A DNA stretch of 64,000 bases, taken from positions 1,862,001 to 1,926,000 of the forward strand of contig NC_045696.1 in assembly GCF_009834535.1 (NCBI RefSeq), written 5' to 3'. The stretch is from Camelus ferus (Eukaryota). The position numbers and the translations under genes are program-made. Position 1 is the first letter of the stretch. Every line of letters begins with the position of its first letter. Of this stretch, positions 32,987-62,060 are shown in pieces. The notes below the pieces were generated by a model, which searched no databases, was not told where the DNA came from, and saw nothing but the letters and a program-made list of their open reading frames with translations.

Positions 32987-33163
32987 GAATAAATATTCTA
33001 AAGTATTTAGAATGATACACTCACGGGTTGGAAAAGTTAATACTGTTAAAATGTCCATCCACCCAAGGCAACCTACAGAGTCAATGAAACTCCTTTCAAA
33101 ATTCCAATGGCATTTTTCAGAGAACCAGAAAAGAGAATCCTAAAGTTTGAGTAGAAACACAAA

Positions 33164-33811
33164 TGATGCAGGAAAAACGGACCTGAAGCGTGAGGAGGGC
33201 CGAGTCCCAGGTCTCAGCTCAGCCCGTGGGACGTGCCCCGCCGATGGCAGGTCCTCGGCTTCACGTAGGAAAGAATTCAAGAGTGAGCCACAGTTGGAGA
33301 TTTATTTAGAGAAACACATGCTGTATAGAGTGTAGCCTGTTTCAAAAGACAAGAGAAAGGCCATGAGGTGTGGGGGGTGGGTGCCCAGGTTACAGTAAAA
33401 GCAGGCACTCGCTCCACAGACAGGGTGCGGCCGCCTCCAAAGGGGAGGGAGCGGGAGGGGCGGCCGGGAGGGGCGGTGCTGCTGGCTTTCACCCTCGGTA
33501 GCTTCACACCTGCAGGTGGGAGGGCTACTCCAGCTAACCTGGGGAGGGGGCTGGGGCTCCCAGGGGCTGGGCCCCCACCCACTCTGACCTTCGGTGGTCG
33601 GCCTTGGGGCTGTCCTGGCGCCCGCGGGCATGCTATTTATCATGCTGATACGCTACACTGAGCATATGATGAAGCTCAAGGTCTGCTAGAAGTCAGACCT
33701 CCTGCCGTCTTAATCCTCAAGGCCTAGTGAGAGTTGAATCTTCCTCAGCTTTGGTGTTAGTTGCTGTCATTCCTTGAATGGCTGTGCCCTGCCCCCTGCC
33801 CTCCTGCCTCA
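33164..33811 (-). mobile_element. ERV1-type solo LTR with 4-bp TSD
   Basis: TG...CA ends, TSD CAAA at 33160-33163 and 33812-33815, AATAAA on minus near 33300. Confidence 0.85.
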
Positions 33812-33924
33812 CAAAGACCCAGAATTGCCAAAGCAACCCTGAGAAAGAACAAACCTGGAGGTATCACATGCCCTGACTTCAAACTCTATTACAAAGCTGT
33901 TGTAATTACAACAGTATGGTACTG

Positions 33925-36761
33925 ATTGCTGGTCAAGATGGCAGAGTGGTGAGACCACGGGCTCGCCTCTCCTTGTGACTACAGCAAAACAACAGCTGAC
34001 GGCTGAACAACCATTGGGGGAAAAAGGCTGGAACCTAGCAAAAGAGATCTGCTTCAACTGGAAACATAAAGAGGGACCCACAGCAGGACGGTAGGAGGGG
34101 TGTGCTCAAGACATAATTGGGCCCCATACCCCCCAGGGCGGGCGACCCACAAGCTGAAGAACAATTAAGTCGCAGCGGCCCTCCCGCGGGGGTGAGAGCT
34201 CTAAGCCCCACGTCGGGCTCCCCAGACTGTGGCTCTGGCACTGGGAGGAAGAGGAGACCCCAGGATATCTGGTTTTGAAGGCCAGTAGGACTTAACTCCA
34301 GAAGTCCCACGGGACTGGGATAAACAGAGACTCCACTCTCTTGAGAAGCGTACACAGAAACTCACGTGTACCAGGTCCAAGGGCAGAGGCAGTGACTTCA
34401 CAGGAACCTGGGCCAGAGCTGCCTGCTGGACTTGGAGGGTCTCCTGGGGACGTGGGGGACGGCTGCGGCTCACTCAGGGAACAGAAAAGCTGGTGGTGGA
34501 CATTCCGGGAGTGTTCATCTACATGAGTTTGCTGGAGGCTGAGGATCTTGACTGGATCATTAGCACCAAGACCCAGCCCCACCCAGCAGCCTGTAGGGAA
34601 GTCTCAGACCAAACAACACACAGGGTGGGGACACAGCCCCATCCATCAGCAGAATTCCTGAGCCACAAAGACCTCTAGACACAGCCCTACCCACCAGAGG
34701 TCCAGGACCGAGCTTCACCCGGCAGTGGGCAGGTGCTGGCTCCTCCTGCCAGGAAACCTGCATAAGCCTCTAGTCCAGCCTCATCCACCAGGGGCAGGTA
34801 CCAGAGCTAAGAAAACAACAATCCCAAAGCCTGTGGAAGGAGTCCACAAACACAAAAAAAAGAGTGAAAAGAAATGAGGATAGTCTAAGAGAACTCTGGG
34901 ATAACATGAAGCACGTTAATGTTTGCATTATAGGGGTCCCAGAAAGAGAAGAGAGAGAGAAAGAACCTGAAAAAAATATGAAAACCAGCAAGAGAAAAGC
35001 AACAAATAACATACAAGGGAACTCCCACAAGGTTATCAGCTGAGTTTTCAGCAGAAACTCTGCAGGCCAGAAGGGAGTGGCACGGTATATTTAAAGTGAT
35101 GCAAGGGGGAAACCTACAACCAAGAACACTCTGTCCAGCAAGGCTCTCCTTCAGACTTGAGGGAGAAATCAAAAGCTTCACAGATAAACAAAAGCTACAA
35201 GATTTCAGCACCACCAAGCCAGCTTTACAACAAATGTTGAAGGACCTTCTCTAAGTCATCAAACCACAAGAAAAGACAACAGAAAGAAGAAAGAGGGAAA
35301 AAAAACAAAAGCCCTACAAAAGGTTGCTTTGGCTGTTCGGGGCCTTTTATGGCTCCATAAAACTTCGGAATTGCTTGTCTAGTGCTGTGAGGAATGTCAT
35401 GAATACTTTTACAGCGGTGCCCTGGGTCCGTCGTTGCTTTGGGTGGTGTGGCTGTTTTAATAATGTTGAGTCTTCCAATCCAAGAGCACAAGATATCTTT
35501 CCATTTCTTTGCATCATCTTCAGTTTCCTCCGTCAACGGTTTACAGTTTTCAGAGTATAAGTAACCACCTTGGTTAAGTTTATTTCTAGGTATTTTGTTG
35601 GTTTTGGTGCAATGGAAATGTTTATGCCAGCTATAAAATTCTGGGTTTTGAAGTGCGAAAAAAAAATGTGAAAGAAGGGCCGCAAATGGCAAAATAACAT
35701 TCCTTTTTATGGGTGAGTCGCATTCCATTGCATATGCATGCTGCAGCTTTTTTATCCATTCAGCTTTTCAATCCATTCAGCTTTTCACGTGCACTTAGGG
35801 TGCTTCCGCTTCCGGGTAGTTATAAATAGTGCCGCTGTTAATAGCAGGGTGTGTGTATCTTTTTGAGTTAATATTTTTGTTTTTCTTGAATATATGCCCA
35901 GGAGTGGAACTGCTGGGCCATAGGGTGGTTCTATTTTTAGGTTTTTGAGAAACCTCCATATTGTTTTCCATGGTGGCTGCACCCATTTGCATTCCCACCA
36001 ACAGTGCACAAAGGCTCCCTTTTCCCCTCATCCTTGCCGACCTTTGTTATTTGCGTTCTTTCTGATGCTGGCCATGCTGACGGGTGTGAGACGGGGTCTC
36101 ACTGTGATTGTGACTTGCATTTCCCTGGTATTAGTGATGTTGAGCAGCTTTTCAGTTCATGTTCCTGTTGGCCATCTGCATCTTCTCTTTTGGAAAAATG
36201 TCTGTTCAGTTCTTCTGCCCGTATTTTCAATGGGCTCTTTGGTTGTTTGTTTGCTTTTTAATTGAAGTGCAGTTGATTTACAATGTTGTATCTGTTTCTG
36301 GTGCACAGCATGGCTGGACTCGGAGGGCACTGTGCTGAGTGAAGTGAGTCAGCCAGAGAAAGACAGATACTGTAAGACATCACTTACATGTGGGATCGAA
36401 AAAAATACAACAGACTAGTGAGTGTAACAGAAAAGCAGCAGACTCACACACGTAGAGAAGGAACGAGCGGTGCCCAGAGGGGCGGGGGAGGGGGCGGGGC
36501 CAGATGGGGCCGGAGGACTAACAGGCACACACTGGCGGGTACAGAGTAAGCTACCAGGCCGTGCTGTACCGCGTAGGAATACAGCCAACATTTGTAACTA
36601 TGATGGAGTATAACCTTTAAAATTCACGAGTCACTATATTGTATACCTGTAACATAATACTGTGCATCAAATACACTTCAATTTAAAAAATAACGTTGTA
36701 AAATAAATAAATTAATTAAAAACAATAAAAACTGGCTTAAAGGTAAAAATAAATTTTAAAA
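33925..36761 (+). mobile_element. Rearranged L1 insertion (5' UTR, deleted ORF1, inverted segments, 3' end) with 15-bp TSD
   Basis: TSD aacagtatggtactg at 33910-33924 and 36762-36776; caagatggc L1 5' start; ORF1-like remnant at 34865-35250. Confidence 0.75.
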
Positions 36762-37769
36762 AACAGTATGGTACTGGCACAAAAACAGCACATAGATCAA
36801 TGGAACAGAATAGAGAGCCCAGAAGTAAACCCATACATATATGGACAATTAACTTACCACCAAGGAGCCACGAGTATACAGTCTCTTCAATAAATGGTGT
36901 TGGGAAAACTGGGCAGCCACATGCGAAAGAATGAGACTGAAGCACTATCTTACACCACACACAAAGATTAACTCAAAATGGATTTAAGACTTGAGTGTAA
37001 GACCTGAAACCATAAAGCTCCTAGAAGAAAGCATAGATGGTAAACTCTTTGACATCGGTCTTGGTGATGGTTTTTCCGATTTGACACCAAAAGCAAAGGC
37101 AACAAAAAAGCAAAAATAAACAAAAAACTTGACCATACTAAAAACTCCATCGCTGCAAAGGAAGCCATCAACAAAATGAAAAGGCAATGAATTGAATGGG
37201 AGAAAATAGTTGAAAATCTTACATCTGCTAAGGGGTTAGTAGCCAAAATACATGAGGAATTCATACAACTCAGCAGCAGAACAACAGACAATTTGATATA
37301 AAATCCAGGCAAAGAATCTGAATAAATAGTTTTCCAAAGGACACATACAGATGGCCAACAGGAACAAGAAGATGTGCTCAGCATCACTAATACCAGGGAA
37401 TTGCAAACCCAAACCACGAGGAGATACCACCTCACACCTGTCAGAATGGCCCTCACCAAAAAGACAAGAGACAGCAACTGCTGGCAAGGACGTGGAGAAA
37501 CGAGACTTCTTGTGCACTGTTGTGAGAATGTAATTGGTGCAGCCACTGTGGAAAACAGTATGGAGGTTCCTCAAAAAATTAAAAATAGACCTACTGTATG
37601 ATCCAGCAATCCCATTTCTGGGTATTCATCCAAAGAAAACGAAAACTACTTTGAGAAGCTATCTGCAGCCCTGTTCATTGCAGCGTATTTACAACATCCA
37701 AGACATGGAAACAACCTAAGTGCCCACCAGTGGATGAATGGATAAAGCAAGTGTGCCATGTGTATGTAT

Positions 37770-37796
37770 ACACACACACACACACACACACACACA
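37770..37796. repeat. (CA)n microsatellite
   Basis: acacacacacacacacacacacacaca. Confidence 0.95.
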
Positions 37797-38179
37797 ATGG
37801 GATGTGAAAAAAAAGTGAAATCTTCCCATTTGTGACAACATGGGTTGACCTTGAGGGGATTATGCTCAATGAAGTAAGTCAGAGAAAGACAAATACCATA
37901 TGATCTCACTTACATGTGGAATTAAGAAGAAGAAGGAAAAAAAACCCAAACTCATAGATTCAGAGAAGGTGGCAGTCAGAGGTAGGAACTGGGGGCTGGG
38001 TGAAATGAGTGAAGAGGGTCAAAAGGTACAAACTTCCAGGTAAAAAATAAGTCAATCATGTTAGGGACATAACATACAACATGGTGACTGTAGTTCATTA
38101 TACTGCATTGTCAAAACAGAAACTAGTTTAGAACAGGTTTTATCTGCAGGAAGTCTGCAAAGCTGATGCAGAACCCCCA

Positions 38180-38699: not shown

Positions 38700-39197
38700 T
38701 CCTCCGGGTCCCCACCAACACCCCCGCTCCCCGTTCCCCCTCTCCCGCCCCGCTGACTGCCCTTGACCCACCCCACCGCATTAAGCCCCTCCTCCCCTCC
38801 TGCCCAGAGCACTGAGCGCCCTTAGCCCCGCCCCTGAGCACCCCACCCCCGCACTGAGCGCCCCATTACTGAGCCCCCCTCCCTCACCCTCAAGACCCCC
38901 CCTCCCCTGCACGGATCTCTTCTCTTCATCCCTCCCCACTCTGAGGAATCTCCTCCCCCTCACCCCCTTGGGCTCCCTGACCCCCCCCCATCCAGCAGAA
39001 GCACCCCCCACATGACCTCTCACCTTTCCACCCAACACCTTCTGGCACTAAAGGCTCCGCTACACTCCCCCCTCCCCCGCTCCTGTCCCGCCCCCGCACG
39101 TCACGTGGGGACCCTGCCCCCACTCTGCGTCCCCCAACCCGGCCAGCCCACCACCCCGCTTTCCTGCTGGTTTCTGGAAAGCCCTTTCTGCGGTTCC
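38700..39197 (+). promoter_or_regulatory. C-rich DNMT3L promoter region with GC boxes and a GTCACGTG E-box (39100-39107)
   Basis: Strong C-skew, repeated CTGAGC units, CCCGCCCC boxes, directly upstream of the DNMT3L-like upstream exon. Confidence 0.6.
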
Positions 39198-39307
39198 ATG
39201 GCCCTCTCCTCCCCTGGGACCCTGAGTCTGGAGACCCTGGACGACTCGGACCCTGACCCAGCAGGGACACCTGGATGGGGCGCGGTGGCCGCCACCCTGT
39301 GAAATCC
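39198..39307 (+). pseudogene. DNMT3L: Decayed upstream coding exon of DNMT3L (now a 34-codon uORF ending TGA at 39300-39302)
   Basis: MALSSPGTLSLETLDDSDPDPAGT, then the +1 frame continues LDGARWPPPCEI to ATCC|atgagg where a GT donor is expected; that phase matches acceptor ccctag|39760. Confidence 0.65.
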
Positions 39308-39743
39308 ATGAGGCCCTTTCTCCTTCTCCCCAGCCTCCTGCCTTTGAGGGTTCGGCCCCAGAGCCCACAGGCTGGGGCCTGGGGGACAGTGTGGGAGGCA
39401 GGAACATCGGCCTGGCTGAGGGGCCCACAGCCACAGGTGGAGGTACAAGGGGGGTGGCGTGCCTCAGGCCCTGTAACGCCCTCTGTTCTCCCGTTTGTGG
39501 GGAGAAGCGGCCCACCTGACCGACACTGTGGCGGGGGCCTGGGTGGGGGCATCCAGCCAGCCCCCTCTCCAGGTGGGCACTCACCTCCCAGATTGGGACA
39601 GGGAGGTGTCACCGTGGGAGGCGGGTAGGGGTCGAGCTGGGCGGTCTACTCAGTCCCCACGCTGGGGACCAGAGGCTCCAAGACAGGCTGACGGGCCATT
39701 TTCTCCCTCTCTCGTGCGTGTCCTGTCTCCTGGTTTGTGTCCC

Positions 39744-39849
39744 ATGGCCGCTGCCCTAGTCGTGGACCTGGAGGCGGAGCACAGCATGGACGTCATCCTG
39801 GTGGGCTCCAGCGAGCTCTCATCCCCTCCGTCACCCAGGTCACGCAGAG
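39744..39849 (+). CDS. DNMT3L: DNMT3L first intact coding exon (start at 39744 or 39786)
   Basis: [35 protein letters not shown], donor AGAG|gtcagg. Confidence 0.85.
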
Positions 39850-42800
39850 GTCAGGGCTCCTTCAGGAACTGGGCCTACCGCTTAGGCTGCTGAGCCCAGG
39901 CCCGGGCAGCGTCTGGGGTTCCGTGCTTCTGCAATGTTCACACGTCATCCAGGAGCAGGAGGGCCTGACCCAAAGCGTCCCCACCCCACCCCCAAAGCAC
40001 GGATATTCGAGGTGCAGGAGACGGTGGCGGTGGTCCTCTGGCTCCTGCGACGCCAGCAGATCAACTCGTGAAGCTCGCCTCTCCACCCATTTAAATGAGG
40101 AGACAGGCGGAGGAGGGCTGCTGTTTTTCTTTTTCAGATCTTGTCGCGTATGAAGTCCAGGTGAACCAGCGAGACATAGAAGGTGAGAGGCCGCACGGCG
40201 GCCCAGGCAAAGGGTTGTCAGCCTCGCCCAGGTGTCCATCCCTGGGAGGAGGCAGCGGGCGCCCAGCTCACGCCCTCTCCCGCCCCGGCGGCCCCCAATG
40301 CTCCATTTAAAGTGTGCACGTCAGTGTCTTTTAACGTATTCACAGATAACGTGCAGCCAACACTGCAATCCAGTTTTACGACATTTTCATCACCCCCAGA
40401 AAGAAACTGCTCCCCATTAACAGTCACTCCCATTCCTCACCCCTCCACCTCCCCTCTTTCAGCCTCAGGCAACCACGAATCTGCTTTCTTTCTCTGTGGA
40501 TTTGCCTATGTGAGATCTTCTGCATTTTCATATGAATTTTAGGATTAGCTTGTCAATTTCTAAAAAAAAAACAGAACAAACAAAACCAAAGCCGCTGGGA
40601 TTCTGAGAGGGATCTGCCGACTGCTCTGGGGAGGCTTGCCGCTTGAACGATACCCCATCTCCTGATGCATGAGCGTCACGTCTGTTTGATCTTTCATTTC
40701 TTTCAACAGCGGCTTATGGTTTTCGCTGCACGGGTCTTGCACTTCTGTTGTTAAATTGGTTACTGTGTCTGTGTCTCTGTCTGACGGTATCATGACACGG
40801 CGCCCTGTGCTTTTCCACCTTAGACATGTGCATCTGCTGTGGAAGCTTCCAGGTGCACACGCAGCACCCTCTGTTTGAGGGAGGGATGTGTGCTCCATGC
40901 AAGGTAAGCGGGGAGGTCAGGGTGGCTTCGTGGAGGCCTCGGAGCGGAGGAGGCAGCCTGGTTTGCCCTCGCCAAGGACAAGTTCCTGGAGTGCCTCTTC
41001 CTGTACGATGACGACGGGTACCAGTCCTACTGCTCCATCTGCTGTGCGGGAGAGACGCTGCTCATCTGCGAAAACCCCGACTGCACCCGGTGAGGCCGCG
41101 GTGCCCGGGGGCCGGGCGGGGGGGTGAGGGACCGCTGCCCACAAGCCTAGGAAACTCCCGTCCTTCCGGGCTCCGCATCCAGGAGCGCAGGGGGATTTCC
41201 CCCTAAAAGGATGACTTTCTCCAAAGCTTTCAGTTTCCGTCTCAAACATTTCATTTGGTGTAGAGCCTTGACCTATGGGAGGGAGGTGTCAAAAGCTGTT
41301 TGTGATTTTTCTTTCTGTTTTTATCACTAAGACATAGCTGCCCCCTGGATCACAGGCGCCCCTTGCAGCCGGGGTCAGGCAGGGCATGTTCATTTGCCGT
41401 TGCACACCAGCCCAAGCTCCACCTGTGGGCCCCTCCCCTCAGTCCTTCCGGGCCACCCTCCTCCACCCCAAATCTACCCCCTACCTTAGGGATTTGGGTT
41501 TACTGGGAGACCTGACCCGGTTCCGCAAGCTCCGGAGTTTGGAGGAGGAGGATAGCTGGCTTGGGGGCGTCTCTGAAATCTGCTGTTGCCCCGGGTTCCC
41601 CGCTGTCTTCTGCAGATGGCTGGGTTCCTGACTCCCCAGGTCCCTAAGAGGGGCAGGTCCCCTTCCCTGGCCACAGACTCGCCTCCCCACATGCCACCTC
41701 TGTCTTCTCCCTGAGCCTGAGTGTGGCCTCCACCGCTCGCTCAGGGCAAGGAGCGGGCTCACTTCTGCCTGAGGATGCTCCAGGCTGTCGCCAGGCCGTG
41801 GCGGCAGCGCCATTCCTGTCGCCGTGGTTTTCTGTCCGACTCTAGATGCTACTGTTTCGAGTGCGTCGACACGCTGGTCGGCCCGGGGACGTCGGGGAGA
41901 GTTCACGCCATGAGTAACTGGGTGTGCTTCCTGTGCCTGCCCTTCCCCCGCAGCGGGCTGCTGCAGAGGAGGAGGAAGTGGCGAGGGTGGCTGAAGGCCT
42001 TCTACGACCGCGAGGCGGTGAGGCGCGCGGACGGCTGGGCCTCGAGGGCAGGGCGCAGGCACGGGCCCTGGCTCTGTTAGTTTCTCTGGCAACTGGCCGC
42101 AAAACGCTCATCTGGACACGTGGTGAAGTTAAAGGCTTTTAAGCCAACGCACTTCTGTGTCTTCCTCTTTGAGAGCAGTTTCCGCTAGGTGGTCTATCTG
42201 CTAAAAATTACTGTAGCATGGCAATTGTTTCTCCCCAGCCTGGAAGGAGGCATTTGTAGGCGGCAGGGGAGGGGCTCAGCAGAGGTGGGCCTTGGAGTCT
42301 GGCAATTGGGAGCAAACCCTGCGCAGGGTCAGCTTGGTCCAGCCCGGACAGCATCATGGATGTGGGACCTCTCCAGGGTCCAGGCCAGGAGCCGGGAGCT
42401 AGGCAGGGGCTGTGGGCTCATCAAAGCAGGTTGAGCTGTGTCCTCCCCAAAAGATACATCTAAGTCCTAACCCCTGGTACCTGTGAACTGGACCTAGTTT
42501 GCAAACAGGGTCTTGAGGGAGGTCATCCTGGATCAAGGGGACAGGAAGTGCAACAACTGGTGTCACCTAAGGAGGGGGACCTGGGAGACAGACGCAGAGG
42601 GAGGGTGGCCAGGTGATGGGCAGGGGTGTGGGCTGACCCGGGCAGCATGGAACCAGTGCTGGCCTGGGGATCTCTTCTCTGTGCTTGGCGGCCAGGCTGG
42701 TTCTGGAGAGTCACCGCACGGCGTTGCTGGCCACCCACCCACAGGGGCACATGGTGGGCCCACTGTCCCGCACTGCCTGACACCGGATGGGAGCAGGTGC

Positions 42801-45800
42801 CTCTACGGTGCTTGTCAGAATCAAGGCGCCTTGCTCCCAGTGGAGTGTCTTCAGGTCCATTTAGTGGCAGAAACCTCCCCCACTCCCCCACCCTCCACGC
42901 TGGCAAACTGCAAGGAGAGCTCCCCACTGAAAGCAATGGGAGCTGACATTCAGACCTGCTGTTGCGACAGCTCAGGGCCAGGCCGCCAGGGGGAGGAGGC
43001 GCTGCGCCTGCAGCTGCCGTGGGAACCAGGACGTATGTCCCCAGTGTCCATCAGGGCCACACCTGTGCCAGGCCCTTCCTGCCCTCCTCGCCTCCCCACA
43101 GCTCTGGGTAGCCCCAGACCTCCTGCCCGCCACCCCGGGCTCACTGGCTCCTCCACCCTTACCTGGCTGGGCACCGTCCATCTGCTCCAGCCCTGGGTAG
43201 ACCCTTCCCCAGTGGCTCAGGGTGTCCTGCGCGCCCCCGGTGCAGGCAGACAGGCTCAGGCCTGGTCTCCCATCCGCAGCTCGACACCGGGCTCCCCAGA
43301 GGCCAGGCACCCCCCCAGGGCAGCCTCCTGGGGGGCGGGGGCTCTGGGGGTGCTTGTTTCGCAGATGGACCCCCAGGTCTCTGCGGTCCGGGTGTCCTGC
43401 AGAGAGGCTGGGTTACCCCAGGCCTTCTCGGCTCCTTGGTCCTCAGCCTGGCTTCTCCGTGGCCGGACTCAGGTGCTGGCTCAGTCCTGGCCTGGGAGCG
43501 GCCTGACACTGGTAGCCTTCCTTTGGGAGTACTGGGTGACATGGGCCCTGTTCAGAGCCCACAGAGGGGACGGAGAGGGACGGGTGAATCCCACTGCTGA
43601 GCGTGTTTAGAAACACAAGGGAAGCGGCCTCTCCCGGGTGGAATTCTCTTCTTCCGCAATCGGGAACACCCCCTCGAACCTGCGAACCTGTGAACCCGCG
43701 GTTCCTTTGCTAGAGATGGCCTGGGGAGGGCAGAGTCTTCTCCGGAGGGGGCGCGGCTGGGGGCAGCCGCCCCGCAGGTGTGCCCTCTGTTCATCAGGGC
43801 AGATGCTTCTGCTCGGCCAGAGAGAATTCTTCTTGTCCCTCACGGGCTCTATGACCACGTAGTCATCAGAACATCCTTTCTTTTTTTCTTTTTTTTGAAT
43901 AGAAGAGTCCCCTTGAGATGTACAAAACTGTGCCTGTGTGGAAGAGAGAGCCAGTCCGGGTGCTGTCCCTTTTTGGGGACATCAAGAAAGGTGAGTGCGG
44001 TGACGTCCGAGGACTCACCCTGGAAGATGGGTCAGCCTGGAGCGAGACCCCAGAGGACCCGGTGTGCGTGTTTGGGGAGGGGGGGACATCCCCAGTGTCG
44101 CGCTCACTGCAGGTCTAGAGCCAGGCGCCGAGCACGAAGACGGCCTGAGGGTCATTTTCAAGAGGTGTTAGGTTGGGGGGGTGTCGCTGCAGCACTTGGC
44201 TGCTCATCCCTTCAGCAGCGGAGCCGTGGAGAGAAGGCGCAGGTGGCAGGGTAGCGGCGTGGGGGCCTGATGAGGCCCGTGGGGCCCAGGGCTCTGCCTA
44301 GGACAGCACCTGGGCCCCGCTCTGCCCACGGCCACCCAGCCCCAGACACCTCCACACACCTGGCCACCTTGCAGGGCTCTCCGCACCCTCCCTCTCCCCC
44401 AGTGTCCCGGATTGCCCTGGCCGGTCACATGCTGCGTTCCAGCCCTGCCTGGGTGTCCTGCCCCTCCGGCCCCAAGCAGACCCCCACCTGCTGGTGCCTT
44501 TGGAAATCTTACAGATTCTTCTCGGCCCAGCAGACACAAGAATCCATGAAAATACTCCTTAGTCTCTGGCCAAATGGAATGGGGGGTGGGGATCTACCCA
44601 CTTCCAGGGCTGTGTGGCGTGCCCGGTGGCATGTGGTCCAGCGCCTCATGCACACCCGTGTGAGGGACCTGGGGCCTGGGACGCACAGAGCAAGGCACAT
44701 CGTGTGCCCGAAGGAACCCAGGGATCACGGCCCACGGCCACCCGGCCTTCGAGTCCCTGCCTGGATGGCGCATCACTAGTTCAGTTTGTAGGCTCCTTCC
44801 TGTGCCGGGGCCCAGTGGTGCCACACAGCCTGGCTGGGTGACGTCGTGTGGATTGCCACCACCAGTGGTTTCCTAACCCAGAGAGGGGCACCGCAGCCAG
44901 GGAACCCTGGTTCTGCAACAAATGGCTCGACTTTCTGAAGTTAGTCCCGGTGGAGGTGGCTGCTTACCCCTGCCTGGTCGTTGAAAAGATGAAGTTTGCT
45001 CGTTAACGAGGGGCACGTTTTCCGATCGAGTGCTGGCCTTTTGATTCTGCGTGGGGTCAAAACCAGCACTAGCCCTCCTGTGCCCCCTCTGCTCCCCACC
45101 CAGAGTTGACGAGTTTGGGCTTTTTGGAAAGCGGCTCTGGGCCGGGGAGGCTGAGACATCTGGATGATGTCACCGACGTGGTGAGGAGGGACGTAAGTAC
45201 TGCTGTGTTCCTCCAGGCACCAAGGGGAGGGCAATGTGCCAGAGGTCCCAGGGGTGCTGCGGGGATAGGGGACGGGGAGGTGGGAGGGTCCCCAGCAGGT
45301 CCGGCGTGGGAGGGTCTCGCAGGGACTGGCCCCCACAGTGGGCAAGGTGAGAGGACACCTTTGTGGCTCCCACGCTGCCCACAGCCCACAGCAGAGCGAT
45401 TGGCCAAACCTCCTGTCTGGCTTGTTGGAATCCAGGGGCCAGTCCCACCCCCTGTGATGACAGGGCAGCCCCGAGACCTCCTTCTGAAATAGAACGCTGA
45501 GTCTGGGAAGCCACAGCTGCGGATTGTCTGCACACGTCCTCTGGGTGCTGCTGCGAAGTGGTCAGGGGCCCTGGAAGGCTAGTTCCTGCTGTCCTGCCTG
45601 AAAATGACTCACCAGAGCCCAGCTCGGCCTCGAGCCGTCTCCGCAGATGGGAAAAGGCCGGAGCCTCCTCCCGTGGCCTCAGGGCAGGAGGACCCTGGTC
45701 TCTCGCCCCCAACATGGGCACAGCCTCTCACCCCAGGATTAAAGCCCACTGTCCCCAGAGCCCAGCAACCACGTGCAGAGGGTCTGAGGGGCTGGAGTGC

Positions 45801-48800
45801 TGGCCATCGAGAGGTGGCAGCAAGGAAAAGGCCAACGTGGGGGTTGGCTCTGCGCTGGATGCTGGCCGAGGCCTCACAGCTCTGCTCCCCGCCTGGCCCG
45901 GAGCCTGAAGAAGCCTCCTGCAGCATCCCCGGCCCCCATCGCCCCTGGTCCACCCTGCCGTGAGCCAGGACAGTCCTCTTTGTGCTCTCCCCCCACGCCT
46001 TCAGACGTCCCACCACGAAGCATTTCGGGAGCCTGCCCCCCCCGCACGCCGCCAGCCCCCACCCAGGGCAAGGTCCTCCCTCGCAGGGCAGGATGGTTAA
46101 GACGTGACGTGAGGGTGACAGGAGGCCTCCCCGAGCCGCAGAACTGCAAGACCCTATCAGAGAACTGGGTGTTCCCTCTGAGGGAACGTGGGGTGGTAGG
46201 GGAGCACGGCAGCCTGCGGCCTGCAGTGTTGGGGTGCAGGCCTCGCCAGCCCACACCCACACCCACCTCCTCTAGTCCCCGCACCCCTCCCCACCCAGAC
46301 ACCCCCGGGCCTGCTCCGTCAGCCAGCCGTGACAGAGCCCGGTGTCCAGGTGCCACCAGGAGCGCACCTGGGCGGGGTCACAACCCACTGCCACGTGGGG
46401 AACAAGGCTGGGGTGGACATTGAGTGCAGGCTTCCGCCAAGTGCTGTGGTGGGAGGTGGGGCGTCAAAGGAAGCCAGGTCTGCTCTGGAGGGGGTGCTGT
46501 CGGAAAACCAGGGGTCCAGGATTTGGGTCTCTGACTAGTTTTTTAAGAACGACAGTGGCTAGAGTCGTCATGAGCGAGCCCCGGGGTCCCCTGGGCCACC
46601 TCGGTGGTCTTCCCGCCCCTCAAGGGCGCCGCTGCTGGGCAGCGCTGACCTGTCGGGGGCCTGTCAAGTATTTCCCAGCAGCACACAAAATCCCCATGAA
46701 CCCCTGGGGGCCCGTGGGTCGCGGTTCCGCGGGGTCTGTAAGGGCCACACCTGGCGCGAAGGACTCGTCAGCGGTCAGGTTCCCAGGGCTCTGCGGAGGG
46801 CTGTCCTCTCCCAGATGGGAAAGCCGGCTCCGTGTGTCCCCTGAAGCACACGGGCAGGTCTGGCCCGGAGGGTCTCATTACCCCCGACCCCCAGGGGCCT
46901 TTGGGCTGAGGGTCAGCCTAAGTCGCATGGTTAGATGAGCAAGGTGTGGGGCCCTGGGGGACCCCTCCCCACTCCTGAGCCGCCGTGCTTTCCTGCAGGT
47001 GGAGGAATGGGGCCCCTTCGACCTCACCTATGGCTCTACACCCCCCCTTGGCCACACCTGCGACCACCCCCCTGGTAAGAGACCTAAGTCTGCTCCAACT
47101 CCGGGGCCTCTTGTCCCCCACCCCCTCCCATCGCCCCAGCCCTCCTCAGGGAGGGCAGAAGTGGCAGGTCGTCTGCACTGAGGTGTCACAGACCCACAGA
47201 AGTTGTCTGTCTCCAGTGAGTACAGTTTGGTGGTTTTGAAGTGTGCACCCTGTGAAGCCATCACTCTACCCGAGACGATGACTATGTCTGTCACCCCAGG
47301 GCGGCCTGGCACCCCTCCCACCCTCCTTCCGCTGAGCTGGGTATCCCTGTGAGGTGCTTGCCCGGCTTCTCTGTCACCTGCCTTGTCTCAGTACCGGGCC
47401 CACTGGGTGAGGCTGGGTCTGCAGCCCCAGCTGACAGGGAGCCCTGAGCCCTTGAGCCCTCTGTGGGGACGGGGCTGCCCTGGGGAGCAGATGGACGCCC
47501 GGGGCCCAGGCTGGCCGCACCGCAGTCACCCCGCCCCACCAGGGCCCCTCACCCCCGCCCCCGGGGCAGAGCCCAGACGCACGCGCACGCCCCCCCCAGG
47601 GTGGTACCTGTTCCAGTTCCACCGTGTCCTGCAGTACGCGAGGCCCCGGCGGGGCAGCCAACAGCCCTTCTTCTGGATGTTTGTGGACAATCTGGTGCTG
47701 ACCGAGGAGGACCGGGCCGTGGCCACTCGCTTCCTGGAGGTGTGTGCGGGCCAGGGCCCAGGGGTGCCAGCGGCCCCTTGGTGGGGGTGGCACCCCTTAG
47801 ATTCCTGCCCCCGAGGCCTGAGTTTTCAGAGTTTGTGGGGAGCACGAGGGCCACCGCACCACTGAGCCCCCACCCCCACTCCCAAGGGTGCCTCCCGGCT
47901 GCGCTGGGTTCAGGACGCTGCCCCCGGGGCTCGTGTCCTCCCCCCCCCAACGCCATCTGCGCACACGCCCTGTGCACTTTCACACGTCAGCACGCAGTGC
48001 GCGCAGTGACACACTCACACCCGTGTGCACACACGTCAGTCACTCTCACACCCCACGGCGCACAGGGCACAGGGCACTGGCACACACCACACACACGCAC
48101 TCACACCCACCGACAGCCTTGCTGTTTCCTCCTGTCTGAGTCCTGACCATCAGAGCATTCACGTGCGAGCTCAGTGACCAGTCTGTCCAGGGCTGACCAG
48201 GCCCGTCCCTGCCCGCTACCCCCCCACTCAAAGGGCAGCCCCAGCCCAGGCCCAGTGTCCCCTCCTCTTGGGACGGCTCCCCACGATCAAGGGTTCATAA
48301 ACTGGTCGCCAAAGCCCACCGCCCCCACCTCCGCCACCCCCTCCACCTCTGCCCTCGGGTCCTGGGCTTCCTCCAGGACGTCCTCACAGGCGCACGGGGC
48401 TGCCCGCGCCGCTGCCTTGCGGCCGGCTTTTGGCAATCAGCGTTTCCCTGGGAAATCCTCCCGTTCCGAACGGCTCTTCCCCAGTCTTTGTTTTATTGCA
48501 TCCGTCTTGCTTTGTGCGGTTTTACTTTGTGTGGACGTGGAAAATGCATTGAACCTGTTCCAACTAACGGATAAGGGGGATGCCGTTACAAAGGATACTC
48601 AGGGCAGGGGCGCGTGGGGACACACCTGCGGGATGGAGCCTGGAGTGCGGGTGCAGGGTCCAGGCGCGGTCCCCAGGGGTGCAGCGCCGCCGGGGAGGGT
48701 GTTCCCCGAGGCCCCGCCTGGCCGGGCTGCGCTGCGTTTCCCTCGCCCGCCCACGGGCGGCCCCCTCTCTCTGCGTTCCCTCGCCTTCTCCCAGACGCCG

Positions 48801-51800
48801 CAGGGTTCTTCCTCCCTCCTCTGCAGTGGGGGTTTCCCATCCGTGTCAACTGGTTTTGATTTGTGCGTAAGAAACTATTGCTCCACCCCTGCTAGCCCGA
48901 CCTGGTCGCCCTCCTGGGCTACTTTGTAGCCGGCAGTGACCTGCAGATGGCTCAGCAGCCTGTCTAGGGAGTGGGGCAGGTCGTCTGCCGACAGGGACTG
49001 TTTTTCCTTCTTCATTTTGTACCTCGAATGTCTGTCTCTTGTCACACGTTGCTGCTGCCTCTGGGACAATGTTGAATCGCAGGAGTGACGGGACATGCCT
49101 GTCTTGTTCCTGACATTCGAGGAAATGTTTCCAGTGTTTCCTCTACTAAGCTGTTGCTGGCTTTCAGGTCAAAGTTGATACAGTCCACTGTGTTAAGGAA
49201 ATTTCCAGAAGTTCTCCTGGATTTCTGCTTTTCTGAGTTATTCTGTTGAGAGTAATTGCTGGATTCTGTCAAATGTTCTTTTTTATGTCTTTGGAGGTAA
49301 CTACACTTCTTCTCTGGCTCTGACTGTGATCTCCTAGCAGATTTCCTAGGCACAACTGTTCTTGCCTTCCTGGAAAACACCCTTAGTCACGGCACACGGT
49401 TGTGTTGCCGTACTGCTGACTCCCAGTGAACAGCAGTTCATGTGGGATTTTTGCTCTGATAACAGGACAGAGGTGGGTATGTGAGGTTTCTTGTTTTGTT
49501 TCGTGCCGTTTTTTTTTTAGTTGAAGTGTTTTGTGCCACCGTTACTGAGCTTGGGTGTCGGTGTCCAGCGTGCTTCGCACACGTGCCCGAGCCTTTGGCA
49601 GGGCTCTCCCGGGACGTCGTCTGAGCTGGCTGTGGTTGCCGCTGTTCTTACGTGGGAGTAACTCCTCTGTGGGAACTAATCTGTTAAGGTTTTCAGCCTT
49701 TTCTGAGGTCAGTTTGGTAAGCTGTGCTTTCCCAGAATATAAGCCATTAAGTTAAAGTTAACAAATCATTCCTATAGAGCCGGGCAAGAAGTCCTCATGA
49801 TTCTCGTACTTTCATCCGCGTGTCTGTGGTTATTTCTCCTTTTTATGAAGCCTGGCCGTTTTAGATACTGACACGTCGCCACATACCAGCAGTCAGGGCC
49901 AGCTTCGTAAGGTGCAGCATTTATCAAAACATCTGCGCCTGGGTGATCGCGAGCCCAGCCAACCCTGGGCAGCAGTGATCAGCACACGCGCAGCACAGCA
50001 AAGACACTGGCGGTTTTGTGAGCACGTCTGGCAGATCAGAACGGGTCCCAAACCAGGAGTCGGCAAAAGAGAAGCTCCACCTGTCCTGTGCCCGCTCCCA
50101 CCGCGCTGTGGACTCGTTCCCGCTGACGGCAGGGAACCAGCGAGACGTGCCGATACAGGACCTGCCTCTTTCTGCTCTGCAGCTGGTGGTCCGTCCCGGT
50201 GTGAGCCTCCTCCCGGCCAGGCGTCGGGACACAGGAGGAGGCTGATGTGTCGGGGACGGTTCAGGGAGGTGGAGTCCAGGCCACCCCAAGTGGAGTGTTG
50301 GCAGCTGGGTGGCCTCAGTTTCTCCTCCCTGCCCTCATCCTTTCCACAGCTCCTGCCACTAGCCCTTCCTCCCCTGGCTGCCGGTGCTTTCCGGGGAGAC
50401 GTGACCAGGACCCAGGTGCTCACTGGACTCCCCACGGGCCCCATGAAGCACCAGCCCTTTAGGAAACCCTGCTCTCTGCCCACAGAGCCTCTCATCTCCC
50501 TGAGACGAGACTCCCCTGGTTCTAAGACCCAGGACTTCTCTGTCTTCACGGGAACCCACCTCCGCTCTGGAGCGAGTAGGGAGTCCCTGGGCCATGTGCC
50601 CTTGGGAATGAAATATCTACCAGTTAAAAGTCTTACAATACTATGTCAGCTTTTTTCCTCATGAGGTGATTTACTACAAAAACAGAGATGTGAGATGTCA
50701 GCCATGTGGACCAGAAGACAGTCCAGGGAGGCTGGGGCCCGTGTTCAGGGCTCAGAGATGGTGCCCATGGTGGCCGAGGCCTGTGGGCGCCGTGGGGGTG
50801 GAGGTTACGGTCCGGGTCCCCCAGTTCACCGCCAACATTCTCATCCCTCAGATGGACCCCGTGACCATCCAGCACGTCCGAGGCAGGACCACCCAGAACG
50901 CCGTGCACGTGTGGAGCAACATCCCCGCCGTGAGGAGGTACTTCCTGTGCACCCGAGGCCCCGGGAGGCTTGGGTGGGGGGCTGACCAGCGGCGGGTTCA
51001 CTGGGGTCAGAAGTCTGAGGGGACGGAGCCTCTGCGTCCAGGTAGGGGGCTGTGTCTGGGGGCCTGTGGGGCCACCCCAAGAATTCTAGACAAGCCCTGG
51101 GTTGGGGTGCCCCCTTCCCACTTGGGGAACTTCCCCTGCTTTTGCACTGCTGCCTCTGAGGCTCTCGCCTCTGGACGAACTCCTGCACACGGGCTGCAAG
51201 GCTCGCTGCCCCGGTCCTGGGACGCCCTCCCCAGCCACTAGAGCACCTGCCTCCCTGCACAATCACACTCACACACTCACATACCCACACCCGCTCACAC
51301 TCATCACACACACACACACACAGCACGCGCTCACACAAGCCTTGTGTCCTCACGCTCGCCCCGCCGTGCACTTCTGGGCTGCGCCACTGAGCTGCTTCCA
51401 GCCCTTCACACGTGCCTGCCCTGGGTCCTCACACACACGCACACACCCTTCTCTGCCTCCCGAGAATTCTCAAGACTGTTCATCCTCACGATCACCCCCT
51501 CCGCCTCACCGCCCCGAGCAGCCACCCCGCTGCTCCCCACGCTGGCCCTCCTGTCCTGTCTCTGCCACGTGCCGTCCCCCCAGAGCCCTTGGGCAGGTGG
51601 CCATCTTCTCCCCCAAACCCCACGTGTCTGGCCTTTGCCCTTGTGCTGAACCAACGTTGACTGCATCTTACAGGACAGTAAGTCGTGTGTTCTCCCGACA
51701 GGAAGTTTCTGGAAACTTCTTCTCGGCACCTCCCGATCCCAGCATTGTCCCGCTGGCGCTGTGTGTGGGGAGGGGGTGGCGGGAGCGAGGTGGAGGAGGT

Positions 51801-52869
51801 TTCCAAAATGTGATCTTCTCAGGAGCTTCGAGAGTCACTCCGCCCCTTCCGCGGGGTCGCTCTCCCGCCCACTTCTCCCCCTTGGAGGAGGCGGGGCTGT
51901 TCCCAGAAGCGCAGCAGGTGCTTCCCTTCAGGCTCAGGCGTGAGGAGGGAGGCCCACCCTCCCTGGAAGCAGGGACTATTTTGCTGACCGCCCGCCCTGG
52001 TCCTCCCTTGGCCAGTGGAGCTGCCCCGGGGAGGCGGGCGGGGAGAGTGCCCGGAGGGGCACTGCCTGTTTCTGGTCCCTCGTCTGTGGCCTTCACTCCC
52101 CCAAAGTAAGCCAAGAAGTGTCCCCCAACTCCAGCGAGGTGCCTGGTGCCACGTCCAGGCGCCTTGAGTCCCAGGGTTGCATACATGGCACGCGGGGTCC
52201 CTGCGGGAGTCCTCAGCACAGGTGGCCCGGGACCTGCAGGCGCGGGCGCACTGGGCAGCACCACCCTTGAACACAGCGGGCCTTGCCCACAGTCCCGCCT
52301 CCCTTCTCTGTGGGTTTGCTCTGGGGAGGGGGGGCTCGCCCCACTGAAAGCAGGACCCGCTGAGCTAGGCCAGTGGTCTGTCCTTGGGGACCCTCTGTGC
52401 CCTCTTCTTGTAGGATGGGCTCCTCCCTGGGGAGGCGGGAGATGTGAGGACCCTGGTCATGCTTGTCTTTCTACCACCGGGGAAAAGACTCACAGAAGGT
52501 GTGAGGTCTCCTAAGGGCGTTTCCACCAGAGACCTCAGGTAGTCCAGTGAGACTGGCGCCCGCCCCTCTCCAGGGGCCCTCCCCGCCCACCGTCCCGGCC
52601 TTTCCGGAGCCCGCGGGGCCCTCGGGTGGGCACTGAGCCCCTCTCTCCTTTACAGCAGGCACTCGGCCCTGGTTTCCCAAGAGGAATTAGCCCTGCTGGC
52701 CCAGGACAGGCAGAGAGCGAAGCCCCCCGCCCAGGAGCCAGCCGCGCTGGTGAAGAATTGTTTCCTCCCCTTGAGAGAATATTTCAAGTATTTTTCAACA
52801 GAGCTCACTTCCTCTTTACAAATGAGTCATTATACTGTGAAAACAGCAACAAAAAAAGACTTTTCCTAG
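39744..52869 (+). CDS. DNMT3L: DNA methyltransferase 3-like (catalytically inactive DNMT3A/B cofactor), 11 coding exons, about 402 aa if started at 39744
   Basis: Join 39744-39849, 40138-40182, 40824-40903, 40977-41089, 41846-42017, 43903-43990, 45104-45192, 46999-47074, 47600-47739, 50852-50937, 52656-52869; ADD zinc finger CICCGS...[21 protein letters not shown] interface motif, [15 protein letters not shown]; start codon uncertain. Confidence 0.95.
40138..40182 (+). CDS. DNMT3L: DNMT3L exon
   Basis: [15 protein letters not shown], 45 nt. Confidence 0.95.
40300..40770 (-). mobile_element. L1 fragments in a DNMT3L intron
   Basis: acattttcatcaccccagaaagaaac (3' end) and catatgaattttaggattagcttgtcaatttc (ORF2) motifs. 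Confidence 0.7.
40824..40903 (+). CDS. DNMT3L: DNMT3L exon (ADD)
   Basis: [27 protein letters not shown], 80 nt. Confidence 0.96.
40977..41089 (+). CDS. DNMT3L: DNMT3L exon (ADD)
   Basis: [38 protein letters not shown], 113 nt. Confidence 0.96.
41846..42017 (+). CDS. DNMT3L: DNMT3L exon (ADD end)
   Basis: [30 protein letters not shown]...AFYDREA, 172 nt. Confidence 0.96.
42430..42700 (+). mobile_element. MLT1-like MaLR LTR fragment
   Basis: ggttgagctgtgtcctccccaaaagatacatctaagtcctaacccctggtacctgtgaa. Confidence 0.65.
43903..43990 (+). CDS. DNMT3L: DNMT3L exon
   Basis: [29 protein letters not shown], 88 nt. Confidence 0.94.
45104..45192 (+). CDS. DNMT3L: DNMT3L exon
   Basis: [30 protein letters not shown], 89 nt. 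Confidence 0.95.
46999..47074 (+). CDS. DNMT3L: DNMT3L exon
   Basis: [25 protein letters not shown], 76 nt; lacks the catalytic PC motif. Confidence 0.95.
47600..47739 (+). CDS. DNMT3L: DNMT3L exon
   Basis: [47 protein letters not shown], 140 nt. Confidence 0.96.
49000..49850 (-). mobile_element. Old L1 (L1ME-like) ORF2 fragment
   Basis: Minus-strand SGTRQAC remnant; T-rich. Confidence 0.55.
50852..50937 (+). CDS. DNMT3L: DNMT3L exon
   Basis: [28 protein letters not shown], 86 nt. Confidence 0.94.
52656..52869 (+). CDS. DNMT3L: DNMT3L terminal exon (with 16-aa extension)
   Basis: [17 protein letters not shown]...[38 protein letters not shown] then TAG. Confidence 0.92.
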
Positions 52870-61600: not shown

Positions 61601-62060
61601 TGGGCGGGAAGGGCGACTCTTGGGCAGAGCAGGACCTGTGCGGCTCCCCAGACCGCGTGGCCTTGGTCCCCTACTCCTCCGGGGTCAGGGCGTGACTGCC
61701 GCCTCCCTCTAACCCGGCCCTGGGCGCCATGCACCCCTCCGCTTCTGACCCTCAGCCCGTTTTCCTTCTTGGCAGCGAACTACAGCATGCCTGTGGTCAG
61801 CGGCCCGTCCCAGGATGAGGAGTTCACCCTCACGTGCACGTCCACAAATGGCTACCCGAGGCCGAACGTGTACTGGATCAACAGGACAGACAACAGCCTG
61901 CTGGACCCGGCCCTGCAGAACAGCACCGTGTCCTTGAACGAGCGGGGCCTGTATGACGTGGTCAGCATCCTGAGGCTCGGGCGGACACCCAGCGTGAACG
62001 TGGGCTGCTGCATAGAGAACGTGCTGCTGCACCAGAACCTGACCGTCAGCAGCTGGACAG
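58250..62060 (+). CDS. ICOSLG: Inducible T-cell costimulator ligand (B7-H2/CD275), exons 1-4 (signal peptide, IgV, IgC); continues past the window end
   Basis: Join 58250-58263, 59803-59843, 60741-61100, 61776-62060: [37 protein letters not shown]...[11 protein letters not shown]...ANYSMPVVS...[17 protein letters not shown]...[15 protein letters not shown]. Confidence 0.96.
59803..59843 (+). CDS. ICOSLG: ICOSLG exon 2 (signal peptide)
   Basis: ttttccag|T CCT GAG CTG CTC CTG ... GCC G|gtaagt, 41 nt. Confidence 0.92.
60741..61100 (+). CDS. ICOSLG: ICOSLG exon 3 (IgV)
   Basis: 360 nt, phase 1-1, B7-family IgV. Confidence 0.97.
61776..62060 (+). CDS. ICOSLG: ICOSLG exon 4 (IgC)
   Basis: 285 nt, phase 1-1. 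Confidence 0.96.

What the first reader, a model, noticed from the sequence alone, without database searches (positions are those of the whole stretch)
39198..39788. DNMT3L upstream coding exon looks inactivated twice (frameshift plus GT>AT donor), which would force a new translation start
Seen: ATG 39198 reads MALSSPGTLSLETLDDSDPDPAGT and runs to TGA at 39300. Removing one C at 39270 continues it as LDGARWPPPCEI up to ATCC|atgagg (39307), a GTGAGG donor consensus with G>A at +1. That phase-1 end joins the acceptor ccctag|TC GTG GAC (39760) in frame. Knowledge: mouse Dnmt3l is about 34 aa longer at the N-terminus than human DNMT3L, and from memory the bovine protein starts with a similar MALS...ETLD...CEI peptide. 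Inference: this lineage lost the N-terminal exon independently of primates, leaving a uORF. Translation would start at 39744 (MAAALVV, human-like, but with no AG just upstream) or at 39786 (acagcATGG, strong Kozak). This could alter dosage of a germline imprinting cofactor.
Basis: partly seen in the sequence, partly recalled or inferred. Interest (0 to 1): 0.75.

Follow-up and report, generated by a model that had tools for sequence, protein, structure and literature searches.

The report
Camel DNMT3L splice-donor shift
In camels the first coding exon of a germline DNA-methylation helper gene lost its old splice signal but appears to use a new one 135 bases further on, which lengthens the protein instead of cutting it; the apparent frameshift is missing from other camel data and may be an assembly error.

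Summary
The window is Camelus DNMT3L (CDS identical to the C. ferus/bactrianus RefSeq protein). Both lesions are in the sequence as described, but they do not mean exon loss. (1) The dead donor (GT>AT, 39308) is real: 2 of 2 runs covering it read AT, and 9 of 9 orthologue read-throughs carry an NGT codon there; probably CpG decay. (2) The extra C (39270) is absent from both runs that cover it, one DNA and one RNA. It is an assembly error or an allele of this assembly; unresolved. (3) The RNA contig splices 39442 to 39760 at a new donor 135 nt downstream, in frame. Exon 1 gains 45 stop-free codons, giving a predicted 478-aa protein, and ATG 39744, the start of 8 of 9 camelid models seen, lies inside the removed intron. 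This is a splice-site shift with intron exonisation, a well-known kind of event; I found no report of it for this gene. Support for the new donor is one contig from one run. 'Primates lost the exon' is too wide: macaque, loris and tarsier models keep it.

The parts
39009..39197 (+). Transcribed 5' leader (at least from 39009); holds a weak-context ATG at 39012 that is in frame with ATG 39198
   Evidence: RNA contig X15 record 2 starts at 39009; ATG list and frames
39198..39307 (+). Ancestral coding exon 1 of DNMT3L (36 codons + 1 base when the extra C is left out)
   Evidence: 32/36 identity to rorqual models, 25-27/36 to pig, ruminants, equids; junction in orthologues
39198..39302 (+).
   Evidence: extra C absent in X14 and X15
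39263..39270 (+). Two letters private to the window among the data laid: A at 39263 (G in X14, X15; synonymous) and the extra C at 39270
   Evidence: tables 3 and 4; word-share arithmetic
39308..39309 (+). Dead ancestral donor (GT>AT in C-G context); the change also makes an out-of-frame ATG
   Evidence: AT read in X14 and X15; 9 of 9 orthologue read-throughs have an NGT-coded residue
39308..39442 (+). 135 nt of former intron 1 now exonic; 45 codons, no stop in the DNMT3L frame
   Evidence: X15 record 2; translation
39443..39759 (+). Shortened intron 1 (317 nt, GT..AG) with the new donor GAG|gtacaa
   Evidence: joint 'skips 317, GT..AG' in X15; rebuilt contig length 551 = observed 551
39744..39746 (+). 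ATG used as start by camelid RefSeq/GenBank models; intronic in the spliced RNA seen
   Evidence: 8 of 9 camelid models start here; lies inside the skipped 317 nt
39760..39849 (+). Exon 2 from the conserved acceptor; holds ATG 39786 (strong context, would give 388 aa)
40138..52869 (+). Exons 3-12 of DNMT3L, all GT-AG, frame intact (40138-40182, 40824-40903, 40977-41089, 41846-42017, 43903-43990, 45104-45192, 46999-47074, 47600-47739, 50852-50937, 52656-52869); ADD domains PF17980 and PF21255
   Evidence: exon 2-3 joint seen in X15
52819..52869 (+). Camelid C-terminal extension of 16 residues after loss of the usual stop (CAA where other mammals end)

Best explanation
An evolutionary splice-donor shift, not an exon loss. 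The ancestral, intrinsically weak donor of DNMT3L exon 1 (..C|GTGAG) decayed to AT, most likely by CpG deamination (inferred). Splicing now uses a GT 135 nt further into the old intron and the unchanged acceptor at 39760 (shown in one RNA contig). As 135 is a multiple of three and the frame has no stop, translation from ATG 39198 adds 45 Pro/Gly-rich residues ahead of the ADD domain, giving about 478 aa against 417 in whales (inferred; 16 of the extra residues come from a separate C-terminal stop loss). The ADD and methyltransferase-like parts are untouched, so the cofactor probably works as usual (inferred). The extra C in this window is most likely an assembly error or an allele of the sequenced animal (my split: error 0.6, segregating allele 0.25, fixed in this species 0.15).
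For: RNA contig X15 record 2: 39009-39442 | 39760-39849 | 40138-40165, two canonical GT..AG joints, so it is spliced RNA and not DNA; rebuilding it without the C gives exactly its 551 letters. Open frame of 478 aa. AT kept and C absent in 2 of 2 covering runs. 9 of 9 orthologue read-throughs have R, G, S or C (the four NGT codons) where camel has H; 5 of 9 have R (CGT). Camel exon 1 is as close to rorquals (32/36) as exon 2 (25/29), so no sign of decay. None of the 14 best DNA holders exceeds 0.97 of the sampled words, the share expected (0.968) if the 39263+39270 letters are in none of them, while X14's listed differences fully explain its own 0.92. X15 has the window's letter at 39136 where X14 differs, so X15 may be of the window's own species.
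Against: The new donor rests on one contig of one run at depth 6.55; the other two RNA runs laid do not cover exon 1. The donor is weak in a rough matrix score (0.2; gene's other ten donors 1.3-7.9), and a better-scoring in-frame GT lies 6 nt upstream at 39437 (matrix values recalled). 0 of 9 camelid protein models include exon 1. No DNA run labelled as the best-holder organism (A) was laid, so the C is untested where it matters; the 0.97 ceiling could come from any other single site (0.974 for 39466). No alpaca or llama DNA was seen. No protein or ribosome evidence.
Confidence: 0.7

Rival explanations
1. The extra C is a real allele fixed in the window's camel species. The donor shift happened first (shared), then a frameshift turned exon 1 into a 34-codon uORF, and protein is made by re-initiation or leaky scanning at ATG 39786 (388 aa, ADD intact), at lower dose and perhaps under nonsense-mediated decay.
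For: The C is in the assembly; it comes with a second difference 7 nt away (39263, a CpG-type change), which could mark a true haplotype; X14 is labelled as another organism and X15's species is not given. ATG 39786 has a strong context.
Against: No best holder reaches more than 0.97 of the words, including the run flagged as possible source; X15 lacks the C while sharing the window's letter at 39136; exon 1 shows no decay.
Confidence: 0.12
2. The 39443 splice is low-level noise after donor loss; exon 1 is in effect non-coding in camelids and the working mRNA starts in intron 1 or keeps its 3' end, using ATG 39744 or 39786 as the RefSeq models have it and as in human.
For: 8 of 9 camelid models start at 39744 and one further downstream; human translation starts at the homologous ATG in exon 2 (PMC3990577, passage); the new donor is weak and seen once.
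Against: The models are predictions and would look so whenever the homologous donor is missing; the one sense RNA seen removes ATG 39744; X15 has no cover over 39451-39737 (a hole proves little); exon 1 is conserved at the level of exon 2.
Confidence: 0.15
3. Both lesions are assembly errors and camel exon 1 is fully ancestral.
For: One of the two (the C) is absent from other runs.
Against: AT at 39308-39309 is read in a DNA contig spanning the whole stretch and in an RNA contig, and the RNA runs through the site without splicing there.
Confidence: 0.01

Closest known systems
Evolutionary splice-site shifts in conserved mammalian exons (CESAR, PMC4914097, passages; TOGA2, bioRxiv 10.64898/2026.06.30.735536, passages)
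   Same: Ancestral site mutated, new site in the flanking intron, frame kept, exon longer; looks like gene damage in an alignment. CESAR used 360 real cases; TOGA2 corrected 452 human-mouse exons and shows a 165-bp donor shift (CFAP46) first called an uncertain loss.
   Different: At 135 nt it is among the longer shifts; it concerns the first coding exon of DNMT3L in camels, which neither text mentions in what I searched (TOGA2 main text: 0 hits for DNMT3L or camel).
Human-specific novel splice sites (PMC3538075, passages)
   Same: Donor shifts that lengthen an exon without changing the downstream frame (50 of 56 shifts kept the frame).
   Different: Those are gains of a new GT; here loss of the old GT is shown, and whether the 39443 GT is new or old was not testable.
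Human DNMT3L 5' structure (PMC3990577, passages)
   Same: Translation start in exon 2 at the position homologous to 39744; 386/387 aa.
   Different: In the camel RNA seen that ATG is intronic and exon 1 stays in frame.
Other lineage changes at the same DNMT3L junction (gene models)
   Same: The exon 1/2 junction is labile: felid models have a shorter exon 1, and horse, tarsier, seal and bat models use upstream acceptors.
   Different: These are predictions of varying support; none shows a 45-codon donor-side extension.

Membership tests
DNMT3L orthologue | ADD domain (GATA1-like and PHD fingers) near the N-terminus | tested here: met
   PF17980 and PF21255 above cut-off in P0129, which equals the window's CDS
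DNMT3L orthologue | Best match to DNMT3L rather than DNMT3A/B over the full length | tested here: met
   731 bits to human DNMT3L chains against about 250 to DNMT3A/B
DNMT3L orthologue | Synteny with ICOSLG and AIRE (gene order recalled) | tested here: inconclusive
   ICOSLG-like exons at 60737-61099 and 61742-62044; AIRE not looked for
Splice-site shift (exon extension) | Ancestral donor present in outgroups and mutated here | tested here: met
   9 of 9 read-throughs NGT-coded; AT in window, X14, X15. Outgroup letters are inferred from protein, not read from DNA
Splice-site shift (exon extension) | New canonical donor used in RNA with the old acceptor | tested here: met
   one contig, one run: 39442-39760, GT..AG
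Splice-site shift (exon extension) | Reading frame kept, no stop in the added part | tested here: met
   135 nt, 478-aa frame without the extra C; not met for the window's letters as they stand
Splice-site shift (exon extension) | Shifted form is the main isoform and is translated | not testable with these tools
   contigs give no isoform shares; no ribosome or protein data
Inactivated (lost) coding exon with uORF | Inactivating changes confirmed in independent reads | tested here: not met
   frameshift absent in 2 of 2 covering runs
Inactivated (lost) coding exon with uORF | No compensating splice site | tested here: not met
   in-frame donor at 39443 used
Inactivated (lost) coding exon with uORF | Relaxed constraint on the exon | tested here: inconclusive
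   32/36 versus 25/29 for exon 2 against rorquals points to no decay, but 36 codons and protein-level data only

The most novel reading that the evidence does not exclude
Camels carry two real DNMT3L alleles or species states on top of a shared donor shift: one makes a 478-aa protein with a new 45-residue insert, the other (extra C) turns the same exon into a uORF and makes a 388-aa protein at lower dose. That would be a natural, possibly segregating, test of what the DNMT3L N-terminus and dose do in the male germline or placenta outside rodents, including in interspecies hybrids.
Probability: 0.3. Interest if true: 0.5.

Novelty: new member of a known kind. Interest (0 to 1): 0.27.

Why it matters
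It corrects the annotation: the camelid DNMT3L models seen start at an ATG that the one spliced RNA removes, and the true protein may be about 76 residues longer at the N-terminus. It is a clean example of how a dead donor plus a likely assembly indel mimics exon loss. Biologically the effect is probably small, since the change lies ahead of the ADD domain in a region that differs in length among mouse, cat, whale and human models. It would matter more if the frameshift proved to be a real allele, because the role of DNMT3L outside rodents is open (PMC10625200).

Tried and rejected
No whole genome is held for this window. Two pattern scans of metagenome contigs for host DNA over the donor and the start found nothing. 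Protein searches with the extended exon found no camelid protein bearing it: 5 hits among 397 candidates, all non-camelid DNMT3L; 9 hits in the HMMER library, 4 of them read-through frames of the orthologous DNA and 5 unrelated. The 96-codon frame with the extra C found one whale fragment among 5 candidates. Exact look-ups of six window frames: 0 of 6 in the collection. These blanks say nothing on the C. An AlphaFold model of a whale orthologue with 30 sequences failed (mean pLDDT 32), so disorder of the N-terminus is not shown; PMC13031684 passages gave no residue range. RNA runs X17 and X18 do not cover exon 1; holes in contig cover are not used as evidence. Rescue of the as-is frame by other weak donor/acceptor pairs was considered and has no RNA support. 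The idea that ATG 39744 is a conserved start was dropped: the homologous codon reads M in human, horse, hippo and bowhead models but V, L or T in rorqual, porpoise, ruminant, seal and tarsier read-throughs. Earlier scan notes held nothing on this locus.

Full report
Identity. Eleven exons from 39744 to 52869, all bounded by GT-AG, give a 402-aa protein. It is identical to P0129 (RefSeq Camelus ferus and C. bactrianus DNMT3L), and differs at 3 sites from the dromedary model P0124 and at 5 from the alpaca model P0131. It has both ADD-domain Pfam families and matches human DNMT3L chains at 731 bits against about 250 for DNMT3A/B. ICOSLG-like exons follow at 60.7-62.0 kb. The window is Camelus DNMT3L and the body of the gene is intact.

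Observation. All letters are as stated: ATG 39198, TGA 39300-39302, a 36-codon peptide up to ATCC|atgagg if one base at 39270 is skipped, and an in-frame join to the acceptor at 39760.

The segment is the ancestral coding exon 1. Of the 245 stored proteins tested (ids P0003-P0248 less P0206), 67 aligned to the end of the peptide. A pattern flagged 35 as spliced straight to exon 2; one (P0221) is an unrelated repeat protein, leaving 34, from whales, pig, ruminants, zebra, seals, bear, bats, mole, tree shrew, armadillo and Old World monkeys. Nine read on into the intron. The other rows use other acceptors or extra exons, and four rows in all (P0197, P0199, P0221, P0228) are misregistered or unrelated. 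Camel exon 1 is 32/36 identical to rorqual models, exon 2 25/29; read-through frames of intron 1 from other mammals match at 20/36, 21/45, 25/46 and 20/45 (taxa not matched, so a rough control). Macaque, mangabey, tarsier, loris, galago and sifaka models keep the exon as coding, so its loss is not primate-wide. In human the start is in exon 2 (PMC3990577, passages); whether apes truly lost the frame was not tested.

The dead donor is real and derived. In the nine read-throughs the residue at the donor is R (5), G (2), S (1) or C (1), exactly the four NGT codons, where camel has H. The rows were picked on the residues after this one, not on it. They share ancestry, so the nominal 2e-5 overstates the case. 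CGT to CAT fits CpG deamination (inference). DNA run X14 (one contig across all 1201 bases) and RNA run X15 both read AT there.

The frameshift is not confirmed. Of 24 runs listed I laid 4. Two cover 39270, and both leave the C out; both also read G at 39263. X14 carries another organism label than the best holders; X15's label names no species, its pieces are 99% or more alike, and it has the window's letter at 39136 where X14 differs. None of the 14 best DNA holders exceeds 0.97 of the 122 sampled words. Losing the 39263+39270 words predicts 0.968, and X14's listed differences predict 0.915 against 0.92 seen, which leaves little room for a general filter. Any other single private site would give a similar ceiling, so this is a hint only. 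My odds: assembly error 0.6, segregating allele 0.25, fixed in this species 0.15. Spurious 1-bp frameshifts in assemblies are documented (PMC4914097, passages).

The RNA shows a new donor. X15 record 2 (551 letters, depth 6.55) maps to 39009-39442, 39760-39849 and 40138-40165, with two GT..AG joints of 317 and 288 nt. Rebuilding it from those ends without the C gives 551 letters. The first joint uses GAG|gtacaa at 39443, 135 nt past the dead donor, and the conserved acceptor. The 135 nt hold no stop in the DNMT3L frame, and the frame from 39198 runs 478 codons, against 433 for the ancestral junction. ATG 39744 lies inside the removed intron, although 8 of the 9 camelid models seen start there and the ninth further down. 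Limits: one contig, one run; X17 and X18 do not cover exon 1; the donor scores low in a rough matrix with recalled values (0.2; the old site with GT would score -2.0; an unused in-frame GT at 39437 scores 1.05); contigs give no isoform shares.

How it most likely works. Shown: old donor dead, new donor used at least once, frame open. Inferred: CpG decay of a weak donor, take-over by a phase-compatible GT (five of the GTs between 39350 and 39473 are in the right phase in this Gly-rich frame), translation from 39198, and a tolerated insert ahead of the ADD domain, which begins about 35 residues after 39744. Disorder of this region is not shown: my fold failed. If the extra C is real in some animals, the same spliced RNA has a 34-codon uORF, two out-of-frame ATGs (39275 and 39308, the latter made by the donor change) whose frame overlaps ATG 39786, and a possible 388-aa product from 39786.

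Comparison with what is known. This is an evolutionary splice-site shift with exonisation of intron. CESAR used 360 real cases (PMC4914097, passages); TOGA2 reports 452 corrected human-mouse exons and a 165-bp donor shift first taken for a loss (bioRxiv 10.64898/2026.06.30.735536, passages); PMC3538075 (passages) lists human cases. I found no report for camel DNMT3L: 'dnmt3l'+'camel' gave 29 papers, 25 listed, none on it by title or abstract; a camelid-term search listed 20 of 5,425 papers, none holding DNMT3L; (listings) showed none. TOGA2's annotation files and most subscription papers were not seen and may hold it. On function, PMC10625200 (parts 1-2 of 7 and passages) found Dnmt3l expressed in oocytes only of murid and cricetid rodents, silent in cow, pig, macaque and human, and leaves the male germline and placenta open. 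PMC7306680 (passages) gives DNMT3L dN/dS near 0.2 in rodents and primates.

Verdict. Observation confirmed; interpretation mostly overturned. A real but ordinary kind of event that corrects an annotation, with one open question (status of the extra C) that raw reads would settle. Interest 0.27.

Noticed in passing
window 52819-52869 (+): Stop loss: CAA stands where other mammals' DNMT3L ends, adding 16 C-terminal residues. Seen in camel and alpaca models (P0003, P0124, P0129, P0131, P0231) and in none of the pig, ruminant, hippo, whale, equid or primate C-termini printed.
   Followed up: partly
window 39629-39767 and 39879-40079 (-): Run X18 holds a contig with a 111-nt skip (39768-39878) that is a canonical intron on the minus strand (donor GCG|gtaggc, pyrimidine-rich acceptor), i.e. 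a spliced antisense RNA whose intron covers most of DNMT3L exon 2. Contigs of X17 (39849-40056) and X15 (39847-40165) may be the same antisense exon or retained intron 2. A human DNMT3L antisense RNA is recalled, not checked.
   Followed up: partly
window 39012-39197 (+): A weak-context ATG at 39012 is in frame with ATG 39198 over 62 open codons and lies inside the X15 contig; it would give 540 aa.
   Followed up: no
window 39744-39746 (+): The homologous codon toggles between ATG and GTG/CTG/ACG-like states across mammals (M in human, horse, hippo, bowhead, some cat and bat models; V, L or T in others), as expected of a CpG site in an intron; many automatic models start there.
   Followed up: partly
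window 60737-61099 and 61742-62044 (+): Two ICOSLG-like exons, 80-83% identical to the goat and deer fused models, each in one frame.
   Followed up: no
window 39136, 39263, 39466: Single-letter differences to run X14 (A>C, A>G, A>G); X15 shares the window's letter at 39136 and X14's at 39263.
   Followed up: partly
window about 33000-38100: A+T-rich stretch upstream of the gene that reads like fragments of old LINE-1 elements (resemblance recalled, not tested; GC 0.42-0.48).
   Followed up: no
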